The position numbers were made by a program, and so were the translations under genes. This document shows, piece after piece, positions 9,284-60,379 of a stretch of DNA of 64,000 nucleotides (its first letter is position 1; every line of letters starts with the position of its first letter). Source of the DNA: Gammaproteobacteria bacterium (GTDB lineage Bacteria > Pseudomonadota > Gammaproteobacteria > Steroidobacterales > Steroidobacteraceae); assembly GCA_027459765.1 (NCBI GenBank), contig DAIDHD010000059.1:499-64498 (forward strand). The letters run 5' to 3'. Below the pieces are notes generated by a model. That model saw only the letters and a list, made by a program, of their open reading frames with translations. It did no database searches and was not told the DNA's origin.

Positions 9284-9904
9284 TCAGGCGCCCGGTGTGT
9301 CGATGAGCGCCGACACCTCGCGGCTGTCGGCACGGCGCATGGGGCGACCGTCGACGGGCGAGTAGGGCGCCTGGCGGATGCCGTCGATCGGAAACACGGT
9401 GGCATCGACGGTGCGGCCACCGGCCTCGAAGCGCAGCGCCGGGTAGGTCACGCTGCGCTCCGAGTCCATCTTCACGCGCCGCTCGTAGAATTCGTGCGGC
9501 ACGCCGATCTCGATCAGCTTGATCGCCACCGACTCGGAGCTGTCGGCGAACAGGTGCAAATTGATGTCGCTGTGGTCGGTGGCCGTGCCGGTGAGCACCG
9601 AGCCGACCAGCCGCGGCTGGAATTCGTCGAGCACGCGCATGGCGTCGAGCGCCGCGCGGCGCTGCGCGCGCAGGGTCTCTTCGTGGCTGTCGCGACCGAA
9701 CAGCCGCTGGCGCTCGCGCAGCGCGGCCTCGATCTCCACGTTCTTGGGCAGCATCGCGCTGCCGTCGTGCACGCCGAGGCGGTCGGCCGCCTTGCGCTTG
9801 GCCTGGCCGTAGTCCTCGATGCCGTGCTCGGCCATCAGCCGCGCGGCCTCCTGCGCCAGCGCGCGCCGCAGGTCGTCCGCCCGGTGCGAGTTTCGTCTCG
9901 GCAT
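9284..9904 (-). CDS. Conserved hypothetical protein, possible nucleotidyltransferase fold
   Basis: The 206-aa ORF has genome-typical GC3. The segment VGSVLTGTATDHSDINLHLF resembles the Pol-beta NTase motif hG[GS]x9-13Dh[DE]h, with Asn in place of the second acidic residue. This is a motif-level match only. Confidence 0.5.
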   Translation of the reverse strand: MPRRNSHRADDLRRALAQEAARLMAEHGIEDYGQAKRKAADRLGVHDGSAMLPKNVEIEAALRERQRLFGRDSHEETLRAQRRAALDAMRVLDEFQPRLVGSVLTGTATDHSDINLHLFADSSESVAIKLIEIGVPHEFYERRVKMDSERSVTYPALRFEAGGRTVDATVFPIDGIRQAPYSPVDGRPMRRADSREVSALIDTPGA

Positions 9905-9910
9905 GCGTCC

Positions 9911-12466
9911 TCAGAATAGCGGCTTGTCGCCGTCGTTCATCCGGTTGCGGTTGGCGGGGTTCTGGTCGCTGCCGGCCTTCGGCAGGCTCCCCTCCATGAA
10001 CTTCTCCATGATGGCGTTCGGGTCGTCGGCGCCCGCCAGCAGCCCGGTGTCCGGCGAGATGCGTGCGGTGACGATGCCGTCCGGCACCGCCACCGGGCGG
10101 CGCGGCATGGCCGCGAGCGCGTCGTGCATGAAATAGATCCAGGTCGGCAGCGCGGCGTGCGCGCCCTCCTCGCCCGCGCCGAGCGAGCGCGCGACGTCGA
10201 AGCCGGTCCACACCGTCGTCACCAGGCCGGCATTGAAGCCCGAGAACCAGGCATCGTGCTGGTCGTTGGTGGTGCCGGTCTTGCCGGCGATGTCGTCGCG
10301 GTTGAGCACGCGCGCACGCACGCCGGTGCCGCGGCGAATGACGTCGGCCAGCATGTCGGCGATCAGGTAGGACACTTGCGGTTTGAGCACCTGCGGCGCG
10401 AGTTCGGCTACCGTTTCGAGCGTGTGGCCGTCGAAGCGGCCGCTGTCGAGGCCGGCGATGCCGGCGTCGATGCGCGCCACGGCCGGCATCACCACCGGGC
10501 CCGTGCCGTTCGCGGCGGTGGCCGTCACGGTCGGCGCCACCGGTGCGGTAGCCGGCGCCGCCAAGGGCGCTGCGCCCGCCGGCGCGGCGGCGGCAGCACG
10601 AGCGGCCGCGCACTCGAAGCAGGCCACCGGCGCGTGCGCCTGTTCCAGCACCTTGCCGTTCGGGTCCTCGACGCGGTCGATCCAATAGGGCGTGACGCGA
10701 AAGCCGCCGTTCGCGAACACGGCGTAGCCCGTGACCATCTGCAGCGGCGTGGCCTCGGCGGTGCCGAGCGCGATGGTCATGTCGTCCGGGACCTGGCTCT
10801 TTTCGAAGCCGAAGCGGGTGACGTAGTCGCGCGCGTACTCCACGCCGATGTCGCGCAGCAGCCGGATGGTGACGAGGTTGCGCGAGTGCGCGAGCGCGTC
10901 GCGCAGGCGCATCGGTCCGAAGAAGTCGCCCTCGTTGTCCTTCGGCCGCCAGGCCTGTTCGCTGCCGGTCGCGTCGAGCACGATGGGCGCGTCGAGCAGC
11001 ACGCTTGCCGGCGTGAAGCCCTTCTCGAAGGCCGCGGCGTACAGGAATGGCTTGAAGCTCGAGCCGGGCTGGCGGCGCGCCTGGGTGACGCGGTTGAACT
11101 TGCTCTGGTAGTAGTCGAAGCCGCCCACCAGCGCCACCACCGCGCCGTCGTGCGGATCGATCGACACCAGCGCGCTCTGCGCCTGTGGAACCTGCACGAA
11201 CTGCAGCCGGTCCGGCGTGCTACCGACGGTATAGATGACGTCGCCCACCGCCATGACGTCGGCGACGCGTTGCGGGGCCCGGTCGCGGGCGCTGTCGGAG
11301 AGCTGACGCCGCGCCCAGGCGATCTTCTCCCAGGGCAGATTCACGGGACCGACGCCCTTGATGTAGATGCGCGCGCTCTTCTCCTCCACCCGCAGCACCA
11401 CCGCCGGGCGCAGGCCGCCGACCAGCGGTATGTCCTCGAGTGCCTCGTCGATGCTCGCCGGCGTACCGAGCGCGCCGGGATCGATCTTCGCGGTCGCGCC
11501 GCGCCAGCCATGACGGCGGTCGTATTCCAGGAGCCCGGTCCGCAGCGCCACCGTCGCCGCCAGCTGCAGCTGCGAATCGAGCGTGGTGTAGACCCGGTAG
11601 CCGGCGGTGTAGATGGCGTCGCCGTACTTGGTCTGCATCTCGCTGCGCACCATCTCGGCGACGTAGGGTGCGTCCACCTCGATGGCCGGGCCGTGCAGCC
11701 GCGATTCCATCGGATAGGCCTTGGCAGCCTCGTATTCCGGGCGGGTGATGTAACCGAGTTCGAGCATGCGGCCGAGGACGTGCGCGCGCCGCGTGGTGGC
11801 GGCGGCCGGGTCCGCCACCGGGTTGATGGCCGAGGGAGCCGAGGGCAGGCCGGCGAGGGTGGCCATCTCGGCGAGATTGAGCTGGTCCAGGGTCTTGCCG
11901 AAGTACACCTCGGCCGCCGCCGCCACGCCGTAGGCCCGCTGGCCGAGGAAGATCTTGTTCACGTAGAGGGAGAAGATCTCCTCCTTGGTGAACTCCGACT
12001 CCATCAGCAGCGCGATGTAGACCTCGCTGATCTTGCGCTTCAGGTCGCGGCGCGGCGTCAGGAACATGTCGCGCGCCACTTGCATGGTGATGGTGCTCGC
12101 GCCCTGGCGAATGCCGCCCGCGCGCGCATTGGCAAGCGCGGCGCGCAGGATGCCCTGCCAGTCGACGCCGTGATGGCGGAAGAAGCGGTCGTCCTCGGTG
12201 GCGAGGAAGGCCTCCACCAGTTGCGGCGGAAGCTGGTCGTAGCGCACCGGGATGCGGCGTTGTTCGCCCACGGAGGCCATCAGGCGCCCGTCGCGGGTGT
12301 AGATGCGCAGCGGCACCTGGAGCTTGACCTCACGCAGGCTCTCGACGTCCGGCAGGGCGGGGCGCAGGTACACGTAGGCGCAGACGTTGGCGAAGAACAG
12401 AAGCGCCGCGACCCCCAAAAGGACGATGAAAATGCGGGATATGAGAACCAGATAACGTTTGGACAC
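9911..12466 (-). CDS. mrcA: Penicillin-binding protein 1A (bifunctional transglycosylase/transpeptidase)
   Basis: The 851-aa product has an N-terminal TM helix, glycosyltransferase blocks (EDDRFFRHHGVD, GASTITMQVARD, RKISE) and transpeptidase blocks (SSFKP, SRN, KTGTT). It is divergent from pilM, as ponA is in Pseudomonas. Confidence 0.95.
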   Translation of the reverse strand: MSKRYLVLISRIFIVLLGVAALLFFANVCAYVYLRPALPDVESLREVKLQVPLRIYTRDGRLMASVGEQRRIPVRYDQLPPQLVEAFLATEDDRFFRHHGVDWQGILRAALANARAGGIRQGASTITMQVARDMFLTPRRDLKRKISEVYIALLMESEFTKEEIFSLYVNKIFLGQRAYGVAAAAEVYFGKTLDQLNLAEMATLAGLPSAPSAINPVADPAAATTRRAHVLGRMLELGYITRPEYEAAKAYPMESRLHGPAIEVDAPYVAEMVRSEMQTKYGDAIYTAGYRVYTTLDSQLQLAATVALRTGLLEYDRRHGWRGATAKIDPGALGTPASIDEALEDIPLVGGLRPAVVLRVEEKSARIYIKGVGPVNLPWEKIAWARRQLSDSARDRAPQRVADVMAVGDVIYTVGSTPDRLQFVQVPQAQSALVSIDPHDGAVVALVGGFDYYQSKFNRVTQARRQPGSSFKPFLYAAAFEKGFTPASVLLDAPIVLDATGSEQAWRPKDNEGDFFGPMRLRDALAHSRNLVTIRLLRDIGVEYARDYVTRFGFEKSQVPDDMTIALGTAEATPLQMVTGYAVFANGGFRVTPYWIDRVEDPNGKVLEQAHAPVACFECAAARAAAAAPAGAAPLAAPATAPVAPTVTATAANGTGPVVMPAVARIDAGIAGLDSGRFDGHTLETVAELAPQVLKPQVSYLIADMLADVIRRGTGVRARVLNRDDIAGKTGTTNDQHDAWFSGFNAGLVTTVWTGFDVARSLGAGEEGAHAALPTWIYFMHDALAAMPRRPVAVPDGIVTARISPDTGLLAGADDPNAIMEKFMEGSLPKAGSDQNPANRNRMNDGDKPLF

Positions 12467-12895: not shown

Positions 12896-13960
12896 GTGTG
12901 GTCGTTCGCGAAAAGACAGCGTCCGCTGATCGGACTTGACATAACCACCTCCTCGGTCAAGCTCATCGAGCTGTCCCGGGCGGGTGACCAGTACCGTGTC
13001 GAGTCCTATGCGGCCGAGCCGACGCCCCACAATGCGATCAACGAGAAGGCCATCGTCGACGCCGAGGCCGTCGGCGAGGCCATCCGCCGCGCCGTCAAGC
13101 GCTCCGGAGCGAAGAGCCGCCTCGCCGCGATCGCCATCAGCGGCGACGCCGCCATCACCAAGGTCATCCAGATGCCCAAGAGCCTCGGCGAGAACGAGCT
13201 CGAGGGCCAGGTCGAGATGCAGGCCGACCAATACATCCCCTTCCCCATGGAAGAGGTGAGCTACGACTTCCAGGTGATCGGGCCTTCGGAGAAGGACCCC
13301 GAGATGCTGGACGTACTGCTCGTCGCCACCCGCACCGAGAACGTCGAGCAGCGCCAGGCCGCGGTGCAGGCGGCGGGGCTGACCGCGCAGATCGTCGACG
13401 TCGAAGCGTTCGCCCTGGAGAACGCCTGCTCGCTGATGCGCCACCAGATGCCCGACGGCGGGGTCGACCGGACCATCGCCGTGGTCGATTTCGGGGCGAG
13501 CAGCACGACCTTCAGCGTGCTGCGCGATCTGAAGGTGATCTACACCCGCGATTTCGCCTTCGGTGGGCAGCAGCTCACCGAGGAGATCATGCGCACCTAC
13601 GGGTTGTCGATGGAGGAGGCGGGCCGCGCCAAGAAGGAAGGCGGCCTGCCGAGCAACTACCAGCCCGAGGTGCTCGATCCGTTCATCGACGACATGACCC
13701 AGCAGGTCAGCCGCTCGCTGCAGTTCTACCTCGCCTCGGGCAGCGGCCGCTCACAACCGGACCAGATGCTGATCTGCGGCGGCTGCGCCAACATCCCCGG
13801 CGTCGCCGAGGTGATCTCCAGCCGCGTGGGCGTCGCGGCCGAGCGCGGCGATCCGCTGGGCAACATGAAGATCTCCTCCAAGGCCAAGGCGCAGGCCGTC
13901 GGCCGCGACGCCACCGCCCTGCTCACCGCGTGCGGCCTCGCGCTGCGCAGCTTCGATTGA
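12896..13960 (+). CDS. pilM: Type IV pilus assembly protein PilM
   Basis: The 354-aa actin-like ATPase-fold protein is first in the conserved pilMNOPQ order. Confidence 0.93.
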   Translation: MWSFAKRQRPLIGLDITTSSVKLIELSRAGDQYRVESYAAEPTPHNAINEKAIVDAEAVGEAIRRAVKRSGAKSRLAAIAISGDAAITKVIQMPKSLGENELEGQVEMQADQYIPFPMEEVSYDFQVIGPSEKDPEMLDVLLVATRTENVEQRQAAVQAAGLTAQIVDVEAFALENACSLMRHQMPDGGVDRTIAVVDFGASSTTFSVLRDLKVIYTRDFAFGGQQLTEEIMRTYGLSMEEAGRAKKEGGLPSNYQPEVLDPFIDDMTQQVSRSLQFYLASGSGRSQPDQMLICGGCANIPGVAEVISSRVGVAAERGDPLGNMKISSKAKAQAVGRDATALLTACGLALRSFD

Positions 13961-13980: not shown

Positions 13981-14571
13981 ATGCCTCGCATCAATCTACT
14001 TCCCTGGCGTGAACAGCAACGCAAGATCCGGCGCCGCGAGTTCGGCGTCGCCGCCGGCGGCGCCGTGATCGCCGCCATCGTCTTCGCGCTCGGCGGCAAG
14101 CTCGTGTACTCGAGCTGGATCGACGCGCAGAACGCCAAGAACAACCTCTTGAAGTCCGAGATCAAGAAGCTCGACGCCCAGATCGCCGACATTCAGGATC
14201 TCGAGACCCGCAAGCAGCGCCTGGTGGCGCGCATGGAGATCATCGAGAAGCTGCAGCGCAGCCGTCCGGAAATCGTGCACCTCTTCGACGAGATCGTGCA
14301 CACCGTGCCCGACGGCGTCTACCTTACGCAGATCAAGCAGAACGGCCGCAAGCTCGAGATCCACGGCATCGCCCAGTCGAGCACCCGGGTCTCCACCTTC
14401 ATGCGCAACATCGACGGCTCGGCCTGGATGGACAACCCGGCACTGCAGGTCGTCGAGGCCGCCAAGGACTCGCCCACCGGCGGCGAGCGCTTCACGCTGT
14501 TCGCCGACACGGTGGGCGTCGACCTGGAGAACAAGGGCGCAACCACGGTGAAGAAGGTGGCCGCCAAATGA
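13981..14571 (+). CDS. pilN: Type IV pilus assembly protein PilN
   Basis: MPRINLLPWREQQRK is the canonical PilN N-terminus. It has a single TM helix and a coiled coil. Confidence 0.9.
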   Translation: MPRINLLPWREQQRKIRRREFGVAAGGAVIAAIVFALGGKLVYSSWIDAQNAKNNLLKSEIKKLDAQIADIQDLETRKQRLVARMEIIEKLQRSRPEIVHLFDEIVHTVPDGVYLTQIKQNGRKLEIHGIAQSSTRVSTFMRNIDGSAWMDNPALQVVEAAKDSPTGGERFTLFADTVGVDLENKGATTVKKVAAK

Positions 14572-15218
14572 ACTTCCTTCAGCAGCTGCAGACGCTCGAC
14601 CCGCGCGACCCCGGTCGCTGGCCGGTGGCCGTGCGCGCCTTCTTCGTCGCGCTCACGTTCGTGGGCTGCGCCGCCGTCGCCTGGTACGTGCTCGTGTGGA
14701 ACGAGGACCGGCCGGTGCTGCAGAAGGCCGAGCAGGACGAGGCCGATCTTCGCCAGCAATTCTCGACCAAGCAGCAGCGCGCCGCGAACCTCGACGCCTA
14801 CCGCGCGCAACTCGCCGAGATGGAGCGCAGCTTCGGCGCCATGTTGCGCCAGCTGCCGGGCAAGACCGAGGTGCCGAACCTGCTCGTCGACATCTCCCAG
14901 ACGGGTCTCGCGGCCGGCCTGCAGGAGAAGCTCTTCCAGCCGGGCAGCGAGCAGAGCAAGGGCTTCTACGCCGAACTGCCCATCAAGATCCGCCTGGTCG
15001 GCAGCTACCATGAATTCGGCGCCTTCGTGAGCGGCATCGCCGCCTTGCCGCGCATCGTGACGCTGCACGACATCCAGATCACGCCGGTGAACGACAAGGG
15101 CGGCTTCGACAATCTGGTCATGGACGTGACAGCGAAGACTTACCGATACCTCGAGGACGAGGGCGGACCGAAGGCGAAGCCCGGTCACGGCGCCAAGAAC
15201 ACGGGAGGTGCGAAGTGA
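14568..15218 (+). CDS. pilO: Type IV pilus assembly protein PilO
   Basis: The call rests on position, size and a TM helix plus coiled-coil architecture. The start overlaps the pilN stop. Confidence 0.88.
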   Translation: MNFLQQLQTLDPRDPGRWPVAVRAFFVALTFVGCAAVAWYVLVWNEDRPVLQKAEQDEADLRQQFSTKQQRAANLDAYRAQLAEMERSFGAMLRQLPGKTEVPNLLVDISQTGLAAGLQEKLFQPGSEQSKGFYAELPIKIRLVGSYHEFGAFVSGIAALPRIVTLHDIQITPVNDKGGFDNLVMDVTAKTYRYLEDEGGPKAKPGHGAKNTGGAK

Positions 15219-15751
15219 AGCCCCCCCTGAGCAACCGGCCCGTTCCGCGCGCGCTGTTCCTGGTTCTCAACGTAGGCGCCGCGGCGCTGCTCGTCGCCGG
15301 ATGTTCGGGCGGCCAGGCGGATCTGCAGAAGTGGATCGCCGACACCAAGAAGCACCCGGGCGGGCGCATCGCGCCGCTCCCCGAGGTCAAGCCGTACGAG
15401 ACCTTCGCCTACTCCGCGGCGTCGCTGCGCTCGCCGTTCCAGCCCCAGGGACAGACCGGAAACGGTGCGGCCATGCAACGGCGCAACGAGCAGCGCAACC
15501 GCGAGTTTCTGGAGAACTTCCCGCTCGACTCGCTCAAGATGGTCGGCACCATGCAGGTCGGCGGCCGGCTCTACGGTCTCGTGAAGTCGAAGGATGGACT
15601 CGTTCACAAGGTTCTGCCGGGCAATTACCTCGGCCAGAACGACGGCAAGATCAACCAGATCAGCAGCAGCAAGATCAGTCTCACCGAGATCATCCCCGAT
15701 GGTCTCGGCGGCTACATCGAGCGACCGGCCTCGTTGGCGCTCGCCAACTGA
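15215..15751 (+). CDS. pilP: Type IV pilus assembly lipoprotein PilP
   Basis: Lipobox LLVAGC. The call also rests on position between pilO and pilQ. The start overlaps the pilO stop. Confidence 0.85.
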   Translation: MKPPLSNRPVPRALFLVLNVGAAALLVAGCSGGQADLQKWIADTKKHPGGRIAPLPEVKPYETFAYSAASLRSPFQPQGQTGNGAAMQRRNEQRNREFLENFPLDSLKMVGTMQVGGRLYGLVKSKDGLVHKVLPGNYLGQNDGKINQISSSKISLTEIIPDGLGGYIERPASLALAN

Positions 15752-15773
15752 GGCTTCGAGGGAGAACCTGAGG

Positions 15774-17936
15774 ATGACCAAGATGCAGGCAGGAAGGGCG
15801 ATGCTCACGGCATGGGCGCTCGCGGTGGCGTCCCTCGCGGCGCACGCCGCCGACCCGGTGAAGCTCGAATCCATCGACGTGCAGACGACGGGGCAGCAGG
15901 TGCAGCTCAAGCTGCACCTGAGCGGTCCCGCGCCGCAGCCGCTGCCGTTCACCATCGACAAGCCCGCGCGAATCGCCCTCGACTTGCCGAATACCGAGCT
16001 TGCGCTCGCTTCGCGGCGCGTGGACGTGCACTCCGGCGGCGTCGAGACCGTGCTTGCGGCCGAGGCCAACGGCCGCACGCGCGTGGTGGTGGACGTCGAC
16101 TCGCTGCTTCCCTACGCGACGCAGGTGAGCGGTAACGACGTACTGGTCACCATCGGCGGCCAGACGGCCGCCGCGGCCGCCGACTCGGGCGCGCGCAGCG
16201 CCGCCGCCAGACCTGCGCCGGGGGCGGGACCCGCCGCCGCGCCGGAACGGGCCATCCGCACCATCGACTTTCGCCGCGGCTCCGACGGCACCGGCCGCGT
16301 CATCGTCGAACTCACCGATCCGCGCACGCCCGTCAACGTGCGCCAGGAAGGCAATCAGGTGGTGGTCGACTTCGCCGGCGCCCTTTTGCCCAAGAACCTG
16401 ATGCGCCGCTACGACGTCACCGATTTCGCCACCCCGGTGAAGAGCGTGGACGCCCTGCGCGTCGACTCCAACTCGCGGCTCGTGATCAGCGCCCAGGGCG
16501 ATTTCGAACAGCTCGCCTACCAGTCCGACGCCCAATACGTGGTCGAGATCAAGCCCTCGAACAAGCGCGCCGCGGCCGACGAGAAGAAGGAGTACACGGG
16601 CGAGCGCCTGACGCTCAACTTCCAGGACATCGACGTACGCTCGGTGCTGCAGCTGCTGGCCGACACCAGCGGCCAGAACATCGTGGTCAGCGACTCGGTC
16701 ACCGGCAGCCTGACGCTGCGGCTGCAGAACGTGCCCTGGGACCAGGCCCTCGACATCGTGCTGCGCACCAAGGGCCTCGACAAGCGTCGCCAGGACAACG
16801 TCATCATCATCGGCCCCACCGAGGAGTTGGCGGCGCGCGAGAAGGCGGCGCTCGCCGCACACAAGGAAGTGCAGGAGCTGTCGCCGATCCGCACCGAATT
16901 CATCCAGGTCAACTACGCCAAGGTCGCCGACCTCGCCAAGCTGATCCGCGGCCAGGCCGGTGGCGTGTCCGGCGGCGCCGGCGGTGGCAAGCAGAGCATG
17001 CTGTCGCAGCGCGGTACGCTGTCCATCGACGAGCGCACCAACACGCTGATCGTGCAGGACACGGCCGAGAGCCTGGCCGACATCCACCGGCTGGTTCAGA
17101 GCCTGGACGTGCCGGTGCGGCAGGTGCTCATCGAGGCGCGCATCGTCATCGTCAGTGACAGCTTCGAGCGCGACCTGGGCGCCCGCTTCGGCATCACGAC
17201 CGCGCAGAAGAACGGCGCCAACGGCCTGATCTCCGTCACCGGCAACGGCACCGGCGCGGACACCATGTCGCAGTCCGCCATCTCGAACCTGTCGACCACG
17301 GGGTCGGCGTTCCCGGTCGCGACGCCGGCGCTCGCCAACCGCTACATGGTGAACGTGCCGGCCGCGAACACCAACGGCAGCATCGGCATCGGCATCCTGG
17401 GCGGCAGCTTCCTCGTGGACCTGGAGTTGTCGGCGGCGCAGAACGAAGGCCGCAGCCAGACCATCTCCTCGCCGCGCGTGATCACCGCCAACCAGAAACA
17501 GGCGACGATCATGCAGGGTGTCGAGATTCCCTACCAGGAATCCGCCTCCAGCGGCGCCACCACCACGCAGTTCAAGGACGCGGTGCTGAAGCTCATGGTG
17601 ACCCCGCTGATCACGCCCGACAATCGCGTGATCCTCGACCTGAACGTGAGCGACGACGCCGTCGGCCAGCAGGTCACCAGCGCCACCGGCGGCTCGGTGC
17701 CCTCGATCGACACCCGCCAGATCATCACCCAGGTGCTGGTCGGCGACGGCCAGACCGTGGTGCTCGGCGGCATTCTCGACACCACCAAGTCGAAGGCGGC
17801 GCAGAAAGTGCCGTTCTTCGGCGACATCCCGGTGCTCGGAAGCCTCTTCCGCAGCACCACGGACATCAACAACAAGACCGAACTCCTGATCTTCATCACG
17901 CCGAAGATTCTGCGTGAGGGATCGAATCTCTACTGA
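15774..17936 (+). CDS. pilQ: Type IV pilus secretin PilQ
   Basis: In-frame ATG at 15774 in ORF 15594..17936 (MTKMQAGRAML..., signal peptide). It has AMIN-like N-terminal repeats and a secretin C-terminus (VPFFGDIPVLGSLFR, ELLIFITPKIL). Confidence 0.95.
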   Translation: MTKMQAGRAMLTAWALAVASLAAHAADPVKLESIDVQTTGQQVQLKLHLSGPAPQPLPFTIDKPARIALDLPNTELALASRRVDVHSGGVETVLAAEANGRTRVVVDVDSLLPYATQVSGNDVLVTIGGQTAAAAADSGARSAAARPAPGAGPAAAPERAIRTIDFRRGSDGTGRVIVELTDPRTPVNVRQEGNQVVVDFAGALLPKNLMRRYDVTDFATPVKSVDALRVDSNSRLVISAQGDFEQLAYQSDAQYVVEIKPSNKRAAADEKKEYTGERLTLNFQDIDVRSVLQLLADTSGQNIVVSDSVTGSLTLRLQNVPWDQALDIVLRTKGLDKRRQDNVIIIGPTEELAAREKAALAAHKEVQELSPIRTEFIQVNYAKVADLAKLIRGQAGGVSGGAGGGKQSMLSQRGTLSIDERTNTLIVQDTAESLADIHRLVQSLDVPVRQVLIEARIVIVSDSFERDLGARFGITTAQKNGANGLISVTGNGTGADTMSQSAISNLSTTGSAFPVATPALANRYMVNVPAANTNGSIGIGILGGSFLVDLELSAAQNEGRSQTISSPRVITANQKQATIMQGVEIPYQESASSGATTTQFKDAVLKLMVTPLITPDNRVILDLNVSDDAVGQQVTSATGGSVPSIDTRQIITQVLVGDGQTVVLGGILDTTKSKAAQKVPFFGDIPVLGSLFRSTTDINNKTELLIFITPKILREGSNLY

Positions 17937-17974
17937 TGCGCGGCGCAGGCACGCGCTGCATGAGGATGGCACAG

Positions 17975-20224
17975 ATGCGTAAGCTTTGGATGTTGGCGAC
18001 GGTGATGTCGCTCGCGCTGGTGGCGGCCTGCGGAGGCGGCTCGAAGACGCTGATCGGCAACTGTACCGGCGGGACCGGCAGCACGGGCAGCACGGGCAGC
18101 ACGAGCTGCGGCACCACCGGCGGCGGGTCGACCACCGGTGCGGTGGTGAACAGCCTGTCGGTCACCACCAGTTCGGCGCAGATCGCCGCGGACGGCTCCA
18201 CGACCGCCACGATCAGCGCGGTGGCCAAGGACGCCAACAACAACTTCGTGCAGGGCGCCACGGTGAAGTTCAGCGCCCCGACCGGAGGCCTCACGGTCAC
18301 CCAGGCCACCACCGACGCCAGCGGGCTCGCGACCGCGACGCTCGTCGCCAACGGTGCCGCCGCCGGCACCGCCATCACGGTGACGGCGACCTCGGGCAGC
18401 GCCAGCGGCAACGTCACCGTCAACGTGGTCAGCATCCAGCAGACCATTTCGCTCACCACCGATCTGCCGCAGATCCCCTCGGACGGCTCCAAGTCGGCGA
18501 CCATCACCGCGCTGGTGCGCGACGCCAACAACAATTTCGTGTCGGGCGTGGCGGTGAGCTTCAACGCCGATTCCGGCGGCCTCACGGTGACGCAGGGAAC
18601 CACTAATGCGAGCGGCATCGCCACCGCCACTTTGAGCACCGCCAACGATCCCACCAATCGCATCATCCACGTGACCGCGAGCGCCGGTTCGGCCACGCAG
18701 ACGTTGCCGATCCAGGTGACGGGCACGACGCTCACCGTGACCGGCCCGCCGAACCTGGTGCTGAACAGCTCGGGAACCTACACGGTGGCGCTGCTGAATT
18801 CCTCCAAGACGGGCATCCCCAATACCACCGTCAATCTGGCCTCGGCGCTCGGCAACACGCTGAGCGGCGCGACCGTGACCACGGACTCGACCGGCCAGAA
18901 GACCTTCACGGTGACCGCCACCAAGTCGGGCAACGACACCATCACCGCGAGCGCGCTCGGCCTAACCGCCGGACAGCCGGTCGCGGTGGCGGCACAGAGC
19001 TTCGCCTTCACTTCGCCGCCGGCCAACGGCGCCACCACCCAGGTGAACATCGGCACCGCCCAGCCTCTCACGGTGCAGTGGACGGTCAACGGCCAGCCGC
19101 AGGTCGGCCAGACCGTGAACTTTGCCGCCACGCGCGGCACCTTGAGCGCGGCGAGCGCGGTCACCGACGCTAGCGGCAACGCCACCGTGAGCATTTCCTC
19201 CAGCATCTCCGGACCGGCGACCGTGACCGCCTCGGCGACGGGAGTCACGGCGCAGGCGGTGCTCGACTTCATCGCCACCACGCCGGCGTCCATCGACCTG
19301 CAGGCGAGTCCGGCGACCATTCCGACCCAGGGCCAGAGCACGCTCACCGCCATCGTGCGCGACGCGGCAGGCAATCTGGTGGAGAACGCCACCGTCAACT
19401 TCAAGACGGTGAACGACACCACCGGCGGCTCGCTGTCGGTGGCGTCGGCGATCACCGATGCCAACGGCCGCGCGCAGACCGTGTACACCGCGAGCTCGAC
19501 TCCGAGCGCGACCAACGGCGTGACCATCCAGGCGTCGACCACCGGCGCCGGCGGCGCCGCCATCTCGCAGACCGCCAACCTCACCGTGGGCGGCATCACC
19601 GTGTACCTGTCCCTGGGCACGGGCAACACCATCAACGAGAACGCGACCAAGACGCAGTTCATCGTGCCGTACACGGTGATCGCGCTCGACGCCGGCGGCA
19701 ACCCGGTGGCGAACTCCGCCATCACCCTCACCATCCACCCGCTGTATTACTACAAGGGCGGCTATTACCTGCAAGCCAACCCACAGCAATGGGTGCAGAC
19801 CGATACGCCGGCGAGTCCGCCGGGTGGCCCGCCGACGGCGTGTCCGAACGAGGACAGCGACTTCACCGGCATCTACGACCAGGCGAAGGACGGCTTCCCG
19901 GCCTTCTCGGGCCAGGCCGACTACGACCCGCTGGGCAACCAGAACGGCAAGCTCGATCCGGGCGGCACGGCGGTGGCTTCGCCCGCGAGCGTGACCACGG
20001 GCAGCGACGGCTCGGCCGCGTTCAACGTGATCTATCCGGAGAACGAGGCGCTCTGGGTCAAGGTCCAGCTCATCGCCACCACCACGGTGCAGGGCACGGA
20101 GAGCACCGCGAGCTCGACCTTCGTGTTGCCCATCCTCGCCACCTACCTGACGACCACCACGTCGCAGCCGCCGGGATTCGTGAGCCCGTACGGAACCGCG
20201 ACGGTGTGCACCAACCCGAACTGA
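17975..20224 (+). CDS. Big_1 (invasin/intimin-type Ig-like) repeat lipoprotein
   Basis: In-frame ATG at 17975 with GAGGA 7 nt upstream. Lipobox LALVAAC. It has about five tandem repeats of roughly 90 aa of the type '..ADGS..ATI.A.V.DANNNFV.G..V.F.A..GGLTVTQ.TT.ASG.ATATL', followed by a C-terminal domain of about 200 aa. The gene starts 38 nt after the pilQ stop. Confidence 0.8.
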   Translation: MRKLWMLATVMSLALVAACGGGSKTLIGNCTGGTGSTGSTGSTSCGTTGGGSTTGAVVNSLSVTTSSAQIAADGSTTATISAVAKDANNNFVQGATVKFSAPTGGLTVTQATTDASGLATATLVANGAAAGTAITVTATSGSASGNVTVNVVSIQQTISLTTDLPQIPSDGSKSATITALVRDANNNFVSGVAVSFNADSGGLTVTQGTTNASGIATATLSTANDPTNRIIHVTASAGSATQTLPIQVTGTTLTVTGPPNLVLNSSGTYTVALLNSSKTGIPNTTVNLASALGNTLSGATVTTDSTGQKTFTVTATKSGNDTITASALGLTAGQPVAVAAQSFAFTSPPANGATTQVNIGTAQPLTVQWTVNGQPQVGQTVNFAATRGTLSAASAVTDASGNATVSISSSISGPATVTASATGVTAQAVLDFIATTPASIDLQASPATIPTQGQSTLTAIVRDAAGNLVENATVNFKTVNDTTGGSLSVASAITDANGRAQTVYTASSTPSATNGVTIQASTTGAGGAAISQTANLTVGGITVYLSLGTGNTINENATKTQFIVPYTVIALDAGGNPVANSAITLTIHPLYYYKGGYYLQANPQQWVQTDTPASPPGGPPTACPNEDSDFTGIYDQAKDGFPAFSGQADYDPLGNQNGKLDPGGTAVASPASVTTGSDGSAAFNVIYPENEALWVKVQLIATTTVQGTESTASSTFVLPILATYLTTTTSQPPGFVSPYGTATVCTNPN

Positions 20225-20233: not shown

Positions 20234-20264
20234 GCGCAGGCGGCCGCAACGCGGCCGCCTGCGC
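20234..20264 (+). terminator. Strong GC hairpin after the Ig-repeat lipoprotein gene (no U-tract)
   Basis: A perfect 14-bp inverted repeat, GCGCAGGCGGCCGC (20234..20247) and GCGGCCGCCTGCGC (20251..20264), with loop AAC. It lies 10 nt after the stop codon. Confidence 0.45.
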
Positions 20265-20330: not shown

Positions 20331-20858
20331 ATGCTCGGCCGCCGTAATCTCTTCCTCATCGGTCCCATGGGCTCCGGCAAGTCCGCCGTCGGCCGCGCAC
20401 TCGCGCGCCTGTTGAAGCTGCGCTTCATCGACAGCGACACCGACATCGAGGCCCGCACCGGCGTCGACATTCCCTTCATCTTCGAGAAGGAGGGCGAGGC
20501 GGGCTTTCGGGCCCGCGAGCGCGAGGCGATCGAGAGGCTCACCCGCCTCGACGGCATCGTGCTCGCCACCGGCGGCGGGGCGGTGATCGATCCCGACAAC
20601 CGGCGCGCGCTCGCCGAACGTGGCACGGTGGTCTACCTTGCCACCTCGGTGCGCGAACAGCTCGCCCGCACGCGCCACACGCAGCACCGTCCGCTGCTGC
20701 GGGACGCCGATCCCGGCCGCAAGCTTCAGGAGCTGATGGCGGCGCGCGCCGCCTGGTACGCCGAAATCGCGGATCTGACGGTCACCACGGACGGCCGCAA
20801 GGTGGCCTCCGTCGCCGCCGAGATCCACGCAGCACTGCGGGGCACACCGGCGGCCTAA
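20331..20858 (+). CDS. aroK: Shikimate kinase
   Basis: In-frame ATG at 20331. MLGRRNLFLIGPMGSGKSAVGRALA contains the Walker A motif, and DSD and GGG blocks follow. The pilQ...aroK-aroB synteny supports the call. Confidence 0.95.
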   Translation: MLGRRNLFLIGPMGSGKSAVGRALARLLKLRFIDSDTDIEARTGVDIPFIFEKEGEAGFRAREREAIERLTRLDGIVLATGGGAVIDPDNRRALAERGTVVYLATSVREQLARTRHTQHRPLLRDADPGRKLQELMAARAAWYAEIADLTVTTDGRKVASVAAEIHAALRGTPAA

Positions 20859-20877: not shown

Positions 20878-21954
20878 GTGCGCACGCTCGACGTCGAGGC
20901 CGGACCGACCCGCTACACCATCACCATCGGCCCCGCGCTGATCGGCGACCCGCACGCTTGCGCGGCGCGGATCCCGGGCCGGGACCACCTCGTCGTCACC
21001 AACGAGACCGTGGCGCCGCTCTACCTCGACAAGCTGCGCGCCGGCCTGCCCGGACGGCGCGTGCAGGCCTGCGTGCTGCCCGACGGCGAGCGCTTCAAGA
21101 CGCTGGCGACGCTCGAGCGCGTGTTCGATGCGCTCACCGCGCACCGCTTCAATCGCGATGCCGTGGTGATCGCCCTCGGCGGCGGCGTGGTCGGCGACAT
21201 GGCCGGGTTCGCGGCGGCCTGTTACCAGCGTGGCGTTGGTTACGTGCAGGTGCCGACCACTTTGCTCGCCCAAGTGGACTCGTCGGTGGGCGGCAAGACC
21301 GGCGTCAATCTGCCCGCCGGCAAGAATCTGGTGGGAGCCTTCCACCAGCCGCTCGCGGTGATCGCCGACACCGATACGCTCGCGACGCTGCCGCCGCGCG
21401 AGTTGCGCGCTGGTCTCGCCGAGGTGATCAAGTACGGCTGCATCTGCGACGTGGGCTTCCTCGACTGGATCGAGACGCGCCTGGAAGCGCTCCTCGCCTG
21501 CGACGCCGCCGCGCTCACCGAGGCGATCGAGCGCTCCTGTGCCATCAAGGCCCGGGTGGTGGGCGAGGACGAGCGCGAGCACGGGTTGCGCGCCATCCTC
21601 AACTTCGGCCACACCTTCGGGCACGCCATCGAGGCCGCCACCGGCTACGAGACCCTGCTGCACGGCGAGGCCGTGGCTCTCGGCATGCTCTGCGCCGCCG
21701 ATCTGTCGTGCCGCATCGGCATGCTCGAACCGGCCGCCGCCGCCCGTATCGGCGCGCTGTTGACGCGCGCCGGGCTGCCGACCGTGACGCCGCGGATCGG
21801 CGCCGCGCGCGCCGCCGAGCTGCTGCGCCTCGACAAGAAGGTGCTCGCCGGCAAGGTGCGTCTGGTGCTCCTCGACGGTCTCGGCCGGGCCGTGGTGAGC
21901 GACGCCTACCCGCAGGACGCGCTCGGCGCCGTGCTCGAGGAGCGCTTCGCGTGA
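20878..21954 (+). CDS. aroB: 3-dehydroquinate synthase
   Basis: The 358-aa product shows [31 protein letters not shown] and [11 protein letters not shown]. Confidence 0.95.
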
Positions 21955-42399: not shown

Positions 42400-43401
42400 A
42401 TGAAGCCGACGATTCCGCTGCTGGCCGCCGCGTTCCTGCTTGCGAGTTCCGCCGCGCGCGCCGAGTGGGTGCAGCGGATCACCGACGGCATCATGGGCAC
42501 GCGCATCACGGTCGAACTGTGGTCCGAGGATCGCGCCCAGGCGGAGGCGGCGATCGACGCCGTGCTCGACGCCATGCGCCACGTCGACGAGACCATGAGC
42601 ACCTACAAACCCACCAGCGAGGTGTCGCAGGTGAACGCGCACGCGGCCGAGGGGCCGATGCGCATCAGCGGCGAGCTCTTTCACATTCTCACGGAATCCG
42701 AGAAGTACTCGGAGCTCACCGAGGGCGCCTTCGACATCACCTACGCGAGCGTCGGCTACCTCTACGACTTTCGCGAGCACGTGAAGCCGACCGACGCCGC
42801 CATCGCGCGGGCATTGCCCGCCGTCGATCATCGCCACGTGGTGCTCAACCCCGACCAGCGGACGGTGCGCTTCTCGACACCGGGCGTGCGCATCGATCTC
42901 GGCGGCATCGCCAAGGGTTACGCCGTCGACCTGGGGATAGAGGCGCTGAAGGCGCGCGGCATCACGCGTGCCTACGTCGGCGCCGGCGGCGACAGCCGCA
43001 TCATCGGCGATCGCTTCGGCAAACCGTGGATGGTCGGCATCCGCGATCCGCGCAAGGGCGAGGGCTCGGTGATCACGCGCATTCCCCTCACCGACGCCGC
43101 CATCTCGACCTCCGGCGACTACGAGCGATTCTTCGACGAGGGCGGCGTGCGCTATCACCACATCATCGATCCGCACACCGGCAAGTCGGCGAGCAAGGTA
43201 CGCAGCGCCACGGTGATCGGCCCGTATGCCATGCGCACCGACGGGCTGTCGAAGACCGCGTTCGTTCTGGGGCCGGAAGAGGCGATGAAGATCTACAACC
43301 GCATCGAGGACATCGACGCGGTGATCGTGACCCTCGATGGTCGCGTGCTCTACTCCAAGGGCCTGGAACCCGCCCGCGCCGCCGCGCCGCCGCCGCACTG
43401 A
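42400..43401 (+). CDS. apbE: FAD:protein FMN transferase (ApbE family)
   Basis: It has a signal peptide, MGT.I.V, DLGGIAKGYAVD and HHIIDPHTG blocks. Confidence 0.9.
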   Translation: MKPTIPLLAAAFLLASSAARAEWVQRITDGIMGTRITVELWSEDRAQAEAAIDAVLDAMRHVDETMSTYKPTSEVSQVNAHAAEGPMRISGELFHILTESEKYSELTEGAFDITYASVGYLYDFREHVKPTDAAIARALPAVDHRHVVLNPDQRTVRFSTPGVRIDLGGIAKGYAVDLGIEALKARGITRAYVGAGGDSRIIGDRFGKPWMVGIRDPRKGEGSVITRIPLTDAAISTSGDYERFFDEGGVRYHHIIDPHTGKSASKVRSATVIGPYAMRTDGLSKTAFVLGPEEAMKIYNRIEDIDAVIVTLDGRVLYSKGLEPARAAAPPPH

Positions 43402-43502
43402 CCGGCGACGGTGCGCCAAAATCGCATCGCCGAATCGCAAAACGGCATGGCGGGTCGGCGGCGCTTGGCTCACGCTATGAGCTGTTGAGAGGAGTCCGCC
43501 GC

Positions 43503-45059
43503 ATGAGCACCCGCGAAGAGCCGGCCGGCCGGCGCAGCCGGCGGCGGCCAGCCGCCGCCGCCGACGCACACGCGCCGAGCGACCGTACCCGCGCCTACCG
43601 CCACCTGCGCAATCCGTTCCGCCCGCTCGAGGTGTTCTCGACGGACGAGGTCGCGGCCATGCACGACGCGGCCCTCATAATCCTCGAGACCCAGGGCATG
43701 AAGGTCCTGTCGGCCGACGCCCGGCGCCGCTACGCGGCCGCCGGCGGGCAGGTCGACGAGGCTTCGCAGATGGTGCGCCTCGACCGTGCGCTCGTGGCCG
43801 ACGCCCTTGCCAAGGCGCCGCGGGAGATCACCCTGCACGCCGGTGATCCCTCGCGCCACATGCCGGTGTCGGGGGCTCACGTGGCGTTCGCACCCACCTC
43901 CGGTCCGCCCAACATCATGGACGTCGATCGTGGCCGGCGCGCCGGCACGATCGAGGACTTCTGCAACATGATGAAGCTCTGTCAGAGCTTCGAGGTGATC
44001 CACCTGCTCGGCGGCGCCACCGAGCCGCAGGATGTCGCGCCCGCCGTGCGCCACATGCACGTGATGCGCGCGCAGCTGCTGCTCACCGACAAGGTGCCCT
44101 TCATGTTCTCGCGCGGTTCGGCGCAGATCGCCGACAACTTCGAGCTCATCCGGATCGCGCGCGGCATCACGCCCGATGAGTTTCGCGCCCGGCCGTACGT
44201 TTACACCATCATAAACACCAACTCGCCGCTGCAGCTCGACGTGCCCATGGCCGACGGCATCGTCGACAGTGCGGTCGCCGGGCAATTGCTCATCATCACG
44301 CCGTTCACCCTGGCCGGCGCCATGGCGCCGGTGACGGTGGCGGGGGCGCTGACGCTCGCACACGCCGAGTTCCTCGCCGGCCTGACGCTTGCCCAGATCG
44401 CCCGCCCGGGCGCGCCGGTGATGTACGGCAGCTTCACCTCCAACGTCGACATGAAGTCCGGTTCGCCGGCCTTCGGCACGCCGGAATACGTCAAGGCGTC
44501 GTTCGGCGCCGGCCAGCTGGCGCGCTTCATCGGGCTGCCGTGGCGCTCATCGAATGCCACCGCCTCGAACGCGCCGGACGCGCAGGCCGCCTACGAATCC
44601 CAGATGAGCCTCTGGGGCGCCCTGTTCGGCGGCTGCAATTTCATCCTGCACGCCGCCGGCTGGCTGGAGAGCGGCCTCACCACGTCGTACGAGAAGTTCA
44701 TCCTCGACGTGGAGATGTTGCAGATGTTCGCGGAGGTGTTTCAGCCGGTGGGCGCCAGCGCCGCGGACCTCGCGCTCGAGGCGGTCGGGGAGGTCGGACC
44801 CGGCGGGCACTTCTTCGGTTGCGCGCACACCATGGAGCGCTATCGGAGCGCCTTCTACGCGCCGCTGGTGTCCGATTGGCGCAACTTCGGCCAATGGAGC
44901 GAGGGCGGCGCCAAGACCGCCACGCAGCGCGCCACCGAGATCTGGAAGGCGACGCTGGCCGCCTATACGCCACCGGCGCGGGATCCGGCCGTGGTCGAGG
45001 CCGTGAACGACTTCGTCGCCCGGCGCACGCACGAGGGCGGGGCGTTGCCCGCGACTTGA
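43503..45059 (+). CDS. Trimethylamine methyltransferase (MttB) family protein, non-pyrrolysine type, paralog 1
   Basis: In-frame ATG at 43503 (GAGGAG upstream) in ORF 42465..45059. The 518-aa product has no internal stop. Family blocks are INTNSPLQLD, ITPFTLAGAMAPVTVAG, GAPVMYGSF, GSPAFGTPE, DAQAAYES and HAAGWLESGL. The N-terminal tail is Arg-rich. Confidence 0.88.
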   Translation: MSTREEPAGRRSRRRPAAAADAHAPSDRTRAYRHLRNPFRPLEVFSTDEVAAMHDAALIILETQGMKVLSADARRRYAAAGGQVDEASQMVRLDRALVADALAKAPREITLHAGDPSRHMPVSGAHVAFAPTSGPPNIMDVDRGRRAGTIEDFCNMMKLCQSFEVIHLLGGATEPQDVAPAVRHMHVMRAQLLLTDKVPFMFSRGSAQIADNFELIRIARGITPDEFRARPYVYTIINTNSPLQLDVPMADGIVDSAVAGQLLIITPFTLAGAMAPVTVAGALTLAHAEFLAGLTLAQIARPGAPVMYGSFTSNVDMKSGSPAFGTPEYVKASFGAGQLARFIGLPWRSSNATASNAPDAQAAYESQMSLWGALFGGCNFILHAAGWLESGLTTSYEKFILDVEMLQMFAEVFQPVGASAADLALEAVGEVGPGGHFFGCAHTMERYRSAFYAPLVSDWRNFGQWSEGGAKTATQRATEIWKATLAAYTPPARDPAVVEAVNDFVARRTHEGGALPAT

Positions 45060-45269
45060 TCCTCGGGCGGCCACGCCGTCCAAATGCTCCGCGGCGAATC
45101 GACTCGGTCTGGTGCTGACGCATCCAGACAACCCCGTGACGCAAACGGATCAGCCGCTCCTGGCGGTGGTGACCATACTGCGATCGACACGAGAGTCGCC
45201 GCCCGCGAGCGGCGCCGGCTCTCGCCAGTTCCCTTTGAAGGGAGCACCGCCTACCGGAGGAGCATCACC

Positions 45270-46865: not shown

Positions 46866-46902
46866 CGGCGCAGTCAGTGTCCCGCGAGGCCCGACGCAGC
46901 CG

Positions 46903-47565: not shown

Positions 47566-47638
47566 GGTGTAGCACCTTCCCCTGGCACTCGCGAGCAGGT
47601 CCCTAGCGGCTTTTTCACCGAGAGGACAGCCTACGACT

Positions 47639-47676
47639 GCATTGCGGCAGCGGTCACTACGTGATCGCCGCAATGC
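47639..47676 (-). terminator. Hairpin between the RACo gene and the histidine kinase gene
   Basis: Perfect 10-bp arms GCATTGCGGC (47639..47648) and GCCGCAATGC (47667..47676). No U-tract. Confidence 0.4.
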
Positions 47677-47689
47677 TCTAGCGGCGCGC

Positions 47690-57551: not shown

Positions 57552-57603
57552 GCATCGGTCCGACGGCCGCGGCCGCCGGACGGGCGCCGCGGCGCCGGCT
57601 GAG

Positions 57604-58086: not shown

Positions 58087-58119
58087 GGGCGGCGATGTTA
58101 GCACCCGCCGCCGCCGTGC

Positions 58120-59989
<1,870 letters not shown>

Positions 59990-60015
<26 letters not shown>

Positions 60016-60346: not shown

Positions 60347-60379
60347 CGCTGCGCGCGCTGGCCGGTGATACTCGATTCC

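What the first reader, a model, noticed from the sequence alone, without database searches (positions are those of the whole stretch)
17975..20224. 750-aa Big_1 Ig-repeat lipoprotein inserted between pilQ and aroK, apparently the sixth gene of the pilMNOPQ operon
Seen in sequence:
- The ORF starts 38 nt after the pilQ stop with a good RBS and ends 10 nt before a perfect 14-bp-arm hairpin. aroK follows with its own upstream region.
- The protein has a lipobox (LVAAC) and a Gly/Ser/Thr-rich linker.
- It then has about five invasin/intimin-type Ig-like repeats.
- It ends with a C-terminal domain of about 200 aa containing a Pro/Gly/Asp-rich insertion and two Cys.

Established knowledge:
- In Pseudomonas-like genomes pilQ is followed directly by aroK-aroB.
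- Known secretin accessory proteins are of other types: the TPR pilotin PilF/PilW/Tgl and the LysM protein TsaP.

Inference:
- This may be a lineage-specific accessory factor of the type IV pilus secretin, for example a surface-exposed or periplasmic spacer, an adhesin, or a secretin-associated scaffold.
- I cannot tell whether it is widespread.
Basis: partly seen in the sequence, partly recalled or inferred. Interest (0 to 1): 0.65.

Follow-up and report, generated by a model that had tools for sequence, protein, structure and literature searches.

The report
Ig-repeat lipoprotein in pilus operon
A real, uncharacterised gene for a lipid-anchored rod of antibody-like domains sits as a conserved sixth gene behind the type IV pilus secretin gene pilQ in many environmental bacteria, so it is probably an unrecognised pilus-associated envelope or surface protein, though its function is untested.

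Summary
The gene at 17975-20224 encodes 749 aa:
- a lipobox (LVAAC);
- a disordered Gly/Ser/Thr tether;
- five Big_1 Ig domains;
- a 209-aa C-terminal domain with two invariant Cys.

It starts 38 nt after pilQ. A 14-bp hairpin follows it.

Comparative data make it the last gene of a pilMNOPQ-X operon.
- About 50 species-level genomes keep the order pilQ-X-aroK. They are Steroidobacteraceae, Nevskiaceae, Woeseiaceae and Lentisalinibacter, plus two Burkholderiales.
- The pilQ-X gap is typically 13-64 nt.
- No locus has a hairpin after pilQ (0/54), while 47/62 have a strong one after X.
- Distant relatives of 952-3083 aa, one probably from Nitrospinota, are still pil-linked, even where aroK is absent.
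- In five genomes X is followed by fimU-pilVWXY1E.

The C-terminal domain is a split Ig-like sandwich with an inserted loop. It has no Pfam or PDB relative. The loop carries EF-hand/dockerin-type motifs in many members, but they are degenerate here.

[quoted passage not shown] A periplasmic secretin scaffold is the main rival. Function is inferred only.

The parts
12896..13960 (+). pilM
   Evidence: Pfam PilM_2 E 5e-127
13981..14571 (+). pilN
   Evidence: Pfam PilN E 6e-24
14568..15218 (+). pilO
   Evidence: Pfam PilO E 3e-55
15215..15751 (+). pilP
   Evidence: Pfam PilP E 5e-47
15774..17936 (+). pilQ secretin (2 AMIN, N0/STN, Secretin_N, Secretin). The real start is the ATG at 15774, which is followed by a signal peptide.
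   Evidence: Pfam and TIGR02515 IV_pilus_PilQ at E 1e-156. Start.
17937..17974 (+). 38-nt pilQ-X spacer with the ribosome-binding site GAGGA at 17962-17966. It contains no hairpin.
   Evidence: 0/54 related loci have a hairpin of 8 bp or more after pilQ.
17975..18031 (+). Lipoprotein signal peptide, MRKLWMLATVMSLALVAAC (lipobox LVAAC, Cys19)
   Evidence: Cys19 invariant. Lipobox present in all related loci examined but one, whose ORF is N-terminally truncated.
18032..18142 (+). Gly/Ser/Thr-rich tether (aa 20-56), beginning C-G-G-G-S
   Evidence: AF2 pLDDT <50 for residues 1-54. P2'-P4' G-G-[GS] in 38/42 members.
18143..19594 (+). Five tandem Big_1 Ig-like domains (aa 57-153, 154-249, 250-339, 340-435, 436-540)
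   Evidence: Pfam Big_1 E 6e-50 in 5 stretches, plus Invasin_D3. AF2 beta-sandwiches at pLDDT about 90. Closest PDB sequences are intimin 6tpl and 5ldy.
19595..20221 (+). Conserved C-terminal domain (aa 541-749). It is a split Ig-like sandwich with a loop of about 70 aa inserted (aa about 593-665). Invariant Cys623 (19841-19843) and Cys745 (20207-20209). C-terminal tail PPGfvSPYGtatvCTNPN.
   Evidence: pLDDT 88, pTM 0.83. No significant Pfam hit. No PDB relative by fold (E>=1e-3, TM<=0.33) or by sequence. Found in 1511 clusters.
20234..20264 (+). Perfect 14-bp-stem hairpin (loop AAC) starting 10 nt after the stop. It is the positional equivalent of the terminator hairpins found after the gene in relatives, but here it lacks a T tail.
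   Evidence: 47/62 related loci have a perfect stem of 8 bp or more in the same place, against 1/177 controls.
20331..20858 (+). aroK (shikimate kinase), the next transcription unit or a read-through gene
   Evidence: Pfam SKI and NCBIfam AroK. Start read.
20878..21954 (+). aroB (3-dehydroquinate synthase)
   Evidence: TIGR01357 E 2e-111

Best explanation
The gene is the conserved sixth and terminal gene of a type IVa pilus operon, pilM-N-O-P-Q-X.

What it encodes:
- an N-terminally lipidated protein;
- a flexible Gly/Ser/Thr tether;
- a rod of Big_1 Ig domains (five here; by protein length about 4 to more than 20 in orthologues);
- a conserved distal 'head'. The head is an Ig-like sandwich carrying a loop that is probably stapled by a disulfide (two invariant Cys) and, in many members, binds Ca2+.

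Most likely role: an adhesin-like stalk protein of the outer membrane or cell surface. It is made together with the pilus secretin and works with the pilus in surface attachment.

How the evidence divides:
- Shown: the operon membership and the architecture.
- Inferred: the surface location, from the free variation in rod length, the fast divergence and the distal conserved head.
- Speculative: how it would reach the surface. The obvious candidate is the neighbouring secretin PilQ, by analogy with the T2SS-dependent surface lipoproteins InvL and PulA.
For: Real gene and family:
- 1468 homologues at E<1e-5. The top 120 are 51-65% identical and 616-777 aa long.
- AF2 pLDDT 85.5.

Operon membership:
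- PBP1A<-pilMNOPQ-X-aroK-aroB is kept in about 50 of 64 species-level loci and in metagenome contigs.
- pilQ-X gaps are typically 13-64 nt, and a lipobox is present in all loci but one.
- Hairpins of 8 bp or more occur in 0/54 loci after pilQ, in 47/62 after X and in 1/177 controls.

Linkage is to the pilus, not to aroK:
- L074 has pilMNOPQ followed by a 1618-aa member with no aroK.
- L076 has pilQ followed by a 2196-aa member, with pilY1 and minor pilins nearby.
- L071 has a 3083-aa member beside pilMNOPQ-aroB in a probable Nitrospinota genome.
- L012, L020, L023, L030 and L046 have X followed directly by a two-component system and fimU-pilVWXY1E.

Adhesin-like traits:
- Lengths run from 605 to 2196 aa among pilQ-adjacent members.
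- X is the least conserved of nine syntenic proteins in 35/45 loci, with median identity 44% against 60% for PilQ.
- The C-terminal domain is conserved and has invariant Cys623 and Cys745.
- EF-hand/dockerin-type loops are present in 91/208 members.

Precedents:
- InvL is a lipoprotein with invasin-like Ig domains and no barrel. It is put on the surface by the T2SS secretin, and its sorting motif is GGG at P2'-P4' (PMC9245377, PMC12802150). X has C-G-G-[GS].
- Some type IV pilus machines secrete proteins (PMC4471445).
Against: - No experiment exists; localisation and function are inferred.
- The C-G-G motif does not discriminate here, because PilP lipoproteins of the same operons also carry C[GS]GG.
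- The window's own protein has degenerate Ca-loop motifs (DSDFTGIYDQAK; none passes even a loose pattern).
- Some family members are not next to pil genes: L032, L064/L078 (followed by alanine dehydrogenase) and L075.
- No type IVa pilus machine is known to display a lipoprotein.
- An Ig-fold lipoprotein belt around a secretin is known in Deinococcus, which keeps a periplasmic role open.
Confidence: 0.5

Rival explanations
1. A periplasmic structural accessory of the secretin. [quoted passage not shown] Its Ig rod and head would form a belt, cage or strut around the periplasmic part of PilQ, or reach the PilNOP alignment complex or the peptidoglycan.
For: - Conserved position immediately after pilQ with co-transcription signals.
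- Precedent: the Deinococcus Ig-fold (IPT/TIG) lipoprotein DR_1364 forms a 15-mer belt around the secretin (PMC10828601).
- Default Lol sorting puts lipoproteins on the periplasmic face (established knowledge).
- Five Ig domains come to roughly 20 nm, about the width of the periplasm (my estimate).
Against: - Rod length is not conserved. pilQ-adjacent members run from 605 to 2196 aa, and a 3083-aa member lies one gene away. That is hard to fit to a machine of fixed size.
- It is the fastest-evolving protein in the locus, unlike the core machine parts.
- Well-studied type IV pilus systems work without it (established knowledge).
Confidence: 0.22
2. An ordinary adhesin or envelope protein that merely rides on the pil transcript. 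It would be co-regulated with pili for surface colonisation but mechanistically independent of PilQ and the pilus.
For: - Big_1 arrays are generic adhesin modules.
- Some family members lie at loci without pil genes (L032, L064, L078, L075).
- It diverges fast.
Against: The linkage is kept across very distant lineages and through rearrangements of the flanks.
- PilM is only 32-48% identical in L071, L074 and L076.
- aroK is lost in some loci, and the pilY1 cluster is inserted in others, yet the gene stays next to pilQ.
This argues for selection on the association itself.
Confidence: 0.18
3. A pilotin substitute: an outer-membrane lipoprotein that targets or assembles PilQ in place of PilF/PilW/Tgl.
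For: It is a lipoprotein encoded next to the secretin gene.
Against: - It has no TPR or other pilotin fold, only Ig domains.
- Pilotins are small, and a long rod of variable length is unnecessary for that job.
- Whether these genomes also carry pilF could not be checked.
Confidence: 0.05

Closest known systems
InvL of Acinetobacter baumannii (T2SS-dependent surface lipoprotein adhesin; PMC9245377, PMC12802150)
   Same: - Lipobox signal peptide followed by a Gly-rich P2'-P4' (GGG).
- A tandem array of invasin/intimin-type Ig domains.
- No beta-barrel.
- A distinct C-terminal head.
- Dependence of InvL on a secretin-based type IV filament machine gives a plausible route for this protein too.
   Different: - InvL has 3 Ig domains and a C-type lectin-like tip. 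Here there are 5 Big_1 domains and a novel split-Ig head with a Cys pair.
- InvL uses T2SS GspD and GspN, whereas this gene sits with the type IVa pilus pilMNOPQ.
Invasin/intimin inverse autotransporters (type Ve secretion)
   Same: Big_1 / Invasin_D3 Ig repeats forming a rod.
   Different: - No LysM domain and no IAT beta-barrel; the anchor is a lipid instead.
- No C-type lectin-like tip domain.
DR_1364 (GspP), the Ig-fold lipoprotein belt of the Deinococcus radiodurans secretin (PMC10828601)
   Same: A lipoprotein with an Ig-like fold that is physically associated with a secretin. It shows that secretin accessories need not be TPR or LysM proteins.
   Different: - DR_1364 is a 155-aa single IPT/TIG domain, against a 749-aa multi-domain rod here.
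- Whether DR_1364 is encoded next to the secretin gene was not checked.
- No homology has been shown.
Known type IV pilus secretin accessories PilF/PilW/Tgl (TPR pilotins) and TsaP (LysM)
   Same: Envelope proteins that act with PilQ. The pilotins are also lipoproteins.
   Different: No TPR and no LysM domain in the Pfam results. The architecture is completely different.
Leptospira Lig proteins
   Same: A lipobox followed by a long tandem Ig-like array, acting as a surface adhesin (my own knowledge).
   Different: Lig proteins use Big_2 domains, are not linked to pilus genes, and have a different C-terminus.

Membership tests
Intimin/invasin inverse autotransporters | Tandem Big_1 / Invasin_D3 Ig-like domains | tested here: met
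   Pfam Big_1 E 6e-50 in 5 stretches; Invasin_D3 E 9e-24. PDB intimin 6tpl E 8e-6.
Intimin/invasin inverse autotransporters | N-terminal 12-stranded beta-barrel translocator, with or without LysM | tested here: not met
   Pfam finds no barrel or LysM. The N-terminus is a lipobox plus a disordered tether.
Intimin/invasin inverse autotransporters | C-type lectin-like C-terminal tip | tested here: not met
   The AF2 model of the C-terminal domain is an Ig-like sandwich with an inserted loop. Foldseek against the PDB gives only weak generic Ig hits (E>=1e-3, TM<=0.33).
InvL/PulA-type secretin-dependent surface lipoproteins | Lipobox signal peptide | tested here: met
   LVAAC, with Cys19 invariant.
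InvL/PulA-type secretin-dependent surface lipoproteins | Gly/Ser-rich or Asn/Asp-rich sorting motif at P2'-P4' | tested here: inconclusive
   C-G-G-[GS] in 38/42 family members. However, PilP lipoproteins of the same operons carry the same motif, so it does not discriminate in these genomes. The motif definition is from PMC12802150.
InvL/PulA-type secretin-dependent surface lipoproteins | Surface exposure that depends on the secretin (and on GspN) | not testable with these tools
   Needs protease shaving or immunolabelling in wild type against secretin mutants.
Type IV pilus pilotins (PilF/PilW/Tgl) | TPR-repeat fold in a small outer-membrane lipoprotein | tested here: not met
   No TPR in Pfam. 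The structure is all-beta Ig domains.
TsaP | LysM peptidoglycan-binding domain | tested here: not met
   No LysM hit.
Bacterial alpha-2-macroglobulins | MG-domain array with a thioester (CxEQ) and a bait region | tested here: not met
   Only a sub-threshold MG4 hit (20.8 bits against a cutoff of 24.7). The sequence has five Cys and none lies in a CxEQ context. Whole-chain Foldseek matches have TM<=0.28.
pilMNOPQ operon (as a sixth cistron) | Conserved adjacency, same strand, short gap, no terminator before it and a terminator after it | tested here: met
   The transcript itself was not observed.

The most novel reading that the evidence does not exclude
The protein is a cargo of the type IVa pilus machine. 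On this reading, the lipidated Ig-rod adhesin is pulled from the inner membrane and displayed on the cell surface through PilQ. It may dock on the minor-pilin/PilY1 tip complex that is encoded right after it in some genomes. This would make the type IVa pilus a lipoprotein display system, parallel to the T2SS-dependent display of InvL and PulA and to the type IVb pilus-dependent secretion of operon-encoded proteins.
Probability: 0.2. Interest if true: 0.8.

Novelty: new variant of a known kind. Interest (0 to 1): 0.58.

Why it matters
The pilMNOPQ operon is one of the best-studied gene sets of the bacterial envelope and is usually treated as complete. Here a sixth cistron is conserved across many soil and sediment Gammaproteobacteria and beyond. 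It is kept next to the secretin gene through flank rearrangements. That points to an unrecognised component, partner or cargo of the type IVa pilus machine.

If it is a surface lipoprotein that needs PilQ, secretin-mediated lipoprotein display would extend from the T2SS to type IV pili. It would also give a tractable system in cultured Lentisalinibacter strains.

The analysis also defines a widespread C-terminal domain, found in about 1500 clusters at 50% identity. The domain has an invariant Cys pair and has neither a Pfam family nor a solved structure.

Tried and rejected
- Whole-chain Foldseek gave only generic multi-Ig proteins such as alpha-2-macroglobulins and complement, with TM<=0.28. 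It was uninformative.
- Foldseek and a PDB profile search with the C-terminal domain found no relative. The only hit was a weak match (E 0.05) to a dockerin-type Ca loop.
- The P2'-P4' 'GGG' sorting motif was tried as evidence for surface display. I rejected it as discriminating, because PilP carries it too.
- Ca2+ binding by the window's own protein is not supported. The canonical loop is present in 91/208 relatives but absent here.
- The hairpin as a dispersed repeat (REP-like element) was rejected. The arm occurs only at this site plus one unrelated exact copy at 7829.
- Recent horizontal acquisition was rejected, because G+C equals that of the neighbours.
- The alternative start at 17936 was rejected on the homologue alignment.
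- The sigma-70 promoter scan found nothing in 12.4-22.2 kb. This is uninformative in DNA of about 68% G+C.
- Six literature searches found no description of this family or of an Ig-like gene after pilQ. The library is incomplete, so this is weak negative evidence.
- An NCBIfam scan found no specific family for the protein; only far sub-threshold intimin models hit.
Full report
**1. The observation**

The window carries a divergent PBP1A gene (9911-12466, -). It is followed on the + strand by:
- pilM (12896-13960);
- pilN (13981-14571);
- pilO (14568-15218);
- pilP (15215-15751);
- pilQ.

All were identified by Pfam and NCBIfam with strong scores. pilQ really starts at the ATG at 15774, which is followed by a signal peptide, and it ends at 17936.

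The flagged ORF runs from 17975 to 20224 and encodes 749 aa. The gap after pilQ is 38 nt, with GAGGA 8 nt before the ATG. An upstream ATG at 17936 overlaps the pilQ stop. However, 29 homologues start at the MRK/MRR that corresponds to 17975.

A perfect hairpin with 14-bp arms and a 3-nt loop lies at 20234-20264. It is not a dispersed repeat, and no T-run follows it. aroK follows (probable start 20331), then aroB at 20878-21954. G+C is the same as in the neighbours.

**2. The protein**

From the N-terminus:
- Residues 1-19 are a lipoprotein signal peptide (LVAAC), and Cys19 is invariant.
- Residues 20-56 are a Gly/Ser/Thr tether, predicted disordered.
- Five Big_1 domains follow. Pfam gives E 6e-50 in 5 stretches, plus Invasin_D3. 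AF2 models them as beta-sandwiches at pLDDT about 90. The closest solved sequences are intimin 6tpl and the Big_1 protein 5ldy.
- Residues 541-749 form a separate conserved domain.

The C-terminal domain was modelled on its own at pLDDT 88 and pTM 0.83. It is an Ig-like sandwich interrupted by a long loop. Cys623 lies at the start of the loop and Cys745 lies in the conserved tail PPGxxSPYGxxxxC(T)NPN. Both are invariant, which suggests a disulfide staple.

The domain has no significant Pfam hit. It has no PDB relative by fold (best E 1e-3, TM<=0.33) or by sequence profile.

In compact family members the loop consists of two back-to-back EF-hand/dockerin-type motifs: D-x-N-x-N-G-x-L-D-P-G-E, then D-x-N-x-N-G-K-L-D-P-G-D. 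The one weak PDB profile hit is to such a dockerin-type loop. A strict form of the motif occurs in 91 of 208 members, but not in the window's protein, where it is degenerate.

**3. Distribution and context**

The full-length protein has 1468 homologues at E<1e-5. The named ones are only called 'Ig-like domain-containing protein [Steroidobacteraceae bacterium]'. The C-terminal domain alone finds 1511 clusters at 50% identity, mostly at the C-terminus of proteins of 600-1400 aa. Of 94 full-length cluster representatives, 72 have a lipobox.

A scan of one genome per species returned 64 loci. tblastn with the window's proteins shows the order PBP1A<-pilMNOPQ-X-aroK-aroB in about 50 of them. The taxa are:
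- Steroidobacteraceae, Nevskiaceae and Woeseiaceae;
- cultured Lentisalinibacter sediminis and L. orientalis, and Thioalkalivibrio sp. XN8;
- several unclassified Gammaproteobacteria;
- two Burkholderiales, whose PilQ is only 41-42% identical to the window's.

Three metagenome contigs show the same order.

**4. Operon structure**

- The pilQ-to-X gap is typically 13-64 nt, and a lipobox is present in all related loci examined but one, whose ORF is N-terminally truncated.
- Within 90 nt after the pilQ stop, no locus has a perfect hairpin of 8 bp or more (0/54).
- Within 90 nt after the stop of X, 47 of 62 loci have one (median stem 10 bp). In 28 of these a T-rich tail follows.
- Control windows inside pilQ give 1/177.

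So the transcription unit most likely runs pilM to X and ends, at least partly, before aroK. The window's hairpin is the positional equivalent of these terminators, although it lacks the T tail.

**5. The linkage is to the pilus system, not to aroK**

Distant cluster representatives remain linked:
- a 952-aa member between pilQ and aroK (L073);
- a 1170-aa member with He_PIG and Big_1 domains between a pilQ fragment and aroK (L077);
- a 1618-aa member after pilMNOPQ with no aroK (L074);
- a 2196-aa member after pilMNOPQ, with pilY1 and minor pilins downstream (L076);
- a 3083-aa member beside pilMNOPQ-aroB (L071). This genome's NuoD is 91% identical to a Nitrospinota MAG protein, and its PilM is only 32% identical to the window's;
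- a 1376-aa member next to T2SSF-like and prepilin-like genes (L070).

In five species (L012, L020, L023, L030, L046), about 9 kb lies between X and aroK. It holds a two-component system and fimU-pilV-pilW-pilX-pilY1-pilE, so X is flanked by pilus genes on both sides.

There are exceptions:
- L055 has X about 1.4 kb downstream of aroB.
- L032 has no pil genes nearby.
- L064 and L078 have X followed by alanine dehydrogenase.
- A 7473-aa giant protein is unlinked to pil genes (L075).

**6. What it most likely does**

*Shown.* It is a real, conserved gene. It has the architecture lipobox, tether, variable Ig rod and conserved head. It has a conserved place as the last cistron of the pil operon.

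*Inferred.* Rod length varies freely among pilQ-adjacent orthologues (605-2196 aa). X is also the least conserved of nine syntenic proteins in 35 of 45 loci, with median identity 44% against 60% for PilQ and 81% for PilM. These are traits of surface stalk adhesins with a distal binding head, not of a fixed-size machine part.

*The closest functional analogue.* This is InvL of A. baumannii, a lipoprotein with invasin-like Ig domains and no barrel. It reaches the surface through the T2SS secretin, and it needs GspN and a GGG or ND(N/D) motif after the lipid Cys (PMC9245377, PMC12802150). X has C-G-G-[GS] in 38/42 members. But PilP in the same operons has it too, so the motif carries no weight here.

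*Route to the surface.* Some type IV pilus machines do secrete proteins (PMC4471445). Display through PilQ is therefore conceivable, but it is unproven.

*The main rival.* A periplasmic secretin-associated scaffold remains possible. Its precedent is the Ig-fold lipoprotein belt DR_1364 around the Deinococcus secretin (PMC10828601).

**7. Comparison with known families**

- It is not an inverse autotransporter, because it has no barrel, no LysM and no lectin tip.
- It is not a pilotin, because it has no TPR.
- It is not TsaP, because it has no LysM.
- It is not an alpha-2-macroglobulin, because it has no thioester context.
- It works most like the InvL/PulA class of lipid-anchored surface proteins, or like Lig-type Ig-array adhesins. 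Its head domain is new, and so is its association with the type IVa pilus operon.

The literature searches I ran on this question found no description of it.

**8. Verdict**

- The operon reading is supported.
- 'Lineage-specific' is wrong, because the family is widespread.
- Function remains inferred.

I rate it a new variant of a known kind, of moderate to good interest.

Noticed in passing
L012:11795-20682 (also L020, L023, L030, L046): In five related species an OmpR-type response regulator, a histidine kinase and fimU-pilV-pilW-pilX-pilY1-pilE lie between the Ig-lipoprotein gene and aroK. Together with pilMNOPQ they form one large type IV pilus supercluster.
   Followed up: yes
L064:4856-8178 and L078:1-3305: A second conserved context: a family member with no pil genes nearby is followed by alanine dehydrogenase, in a Nevskia MAG and in a MAG labelled 'Candidatus Binatia'. 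This may be a paralogous subfamily.
   Followed up: partly
window 42465-49717: Two adjacent MTTB-family (trimethylamine methyltransferase-like) genes at 42465-45059 and 45084-46865, plus a RACo corrinoid-activase gene at 47690-49717 (-). This looks like a corrinoid-dependent methyl-amine or quaternary-amine demethylation cluster.
   Followed up: no
window 15594-15773: The pilQ ORF extends 180 nt upstream of the real start and overlaps pilP. The true start is the ATG at 15774, with a ribosome-binding site and a signal peptide.
   Followed up: yes
L004:10871-11538: In one relative, a small gene plus a PIN-domain gene (a likely toxin-antitoxin pair) is inserted between aroK and aroB.
   Followed up: no
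window 18059-18109 (aa 29-45 of the protein): The tether contains an extra Cys pair (C30, C45). A few homologues (P0010, P0013, P0026) also have two Cys 10-11 residues apart in the tether. This suggests an optional small disulfide loop near the lipid anchor.
   Followed up: no
window 9284-9904 (-): A 206-aa ORF with no Pfam hit lies next to the PBP1A gene. Genes of 180-203 aa with no Pfam hit occupy the same place in relatives (L001, L004).
   Followed up: no
L070:430-7869: A 1376-aa family member lies downstream of a T2SSF-like platform gene, a prepilin-like (N_methyl) gene and two large genes with no Pfam hit. This may be a divergent type IV filament system. The upstream part could not be fetched.
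   Followed up: partly
window 57410-60565 (-): A 1051-aa ORF with no Pfam hit at E<=1e-5. It may be an unknown protein or a spurious antisense ORF in high-GC DNA.
   Followed up: no
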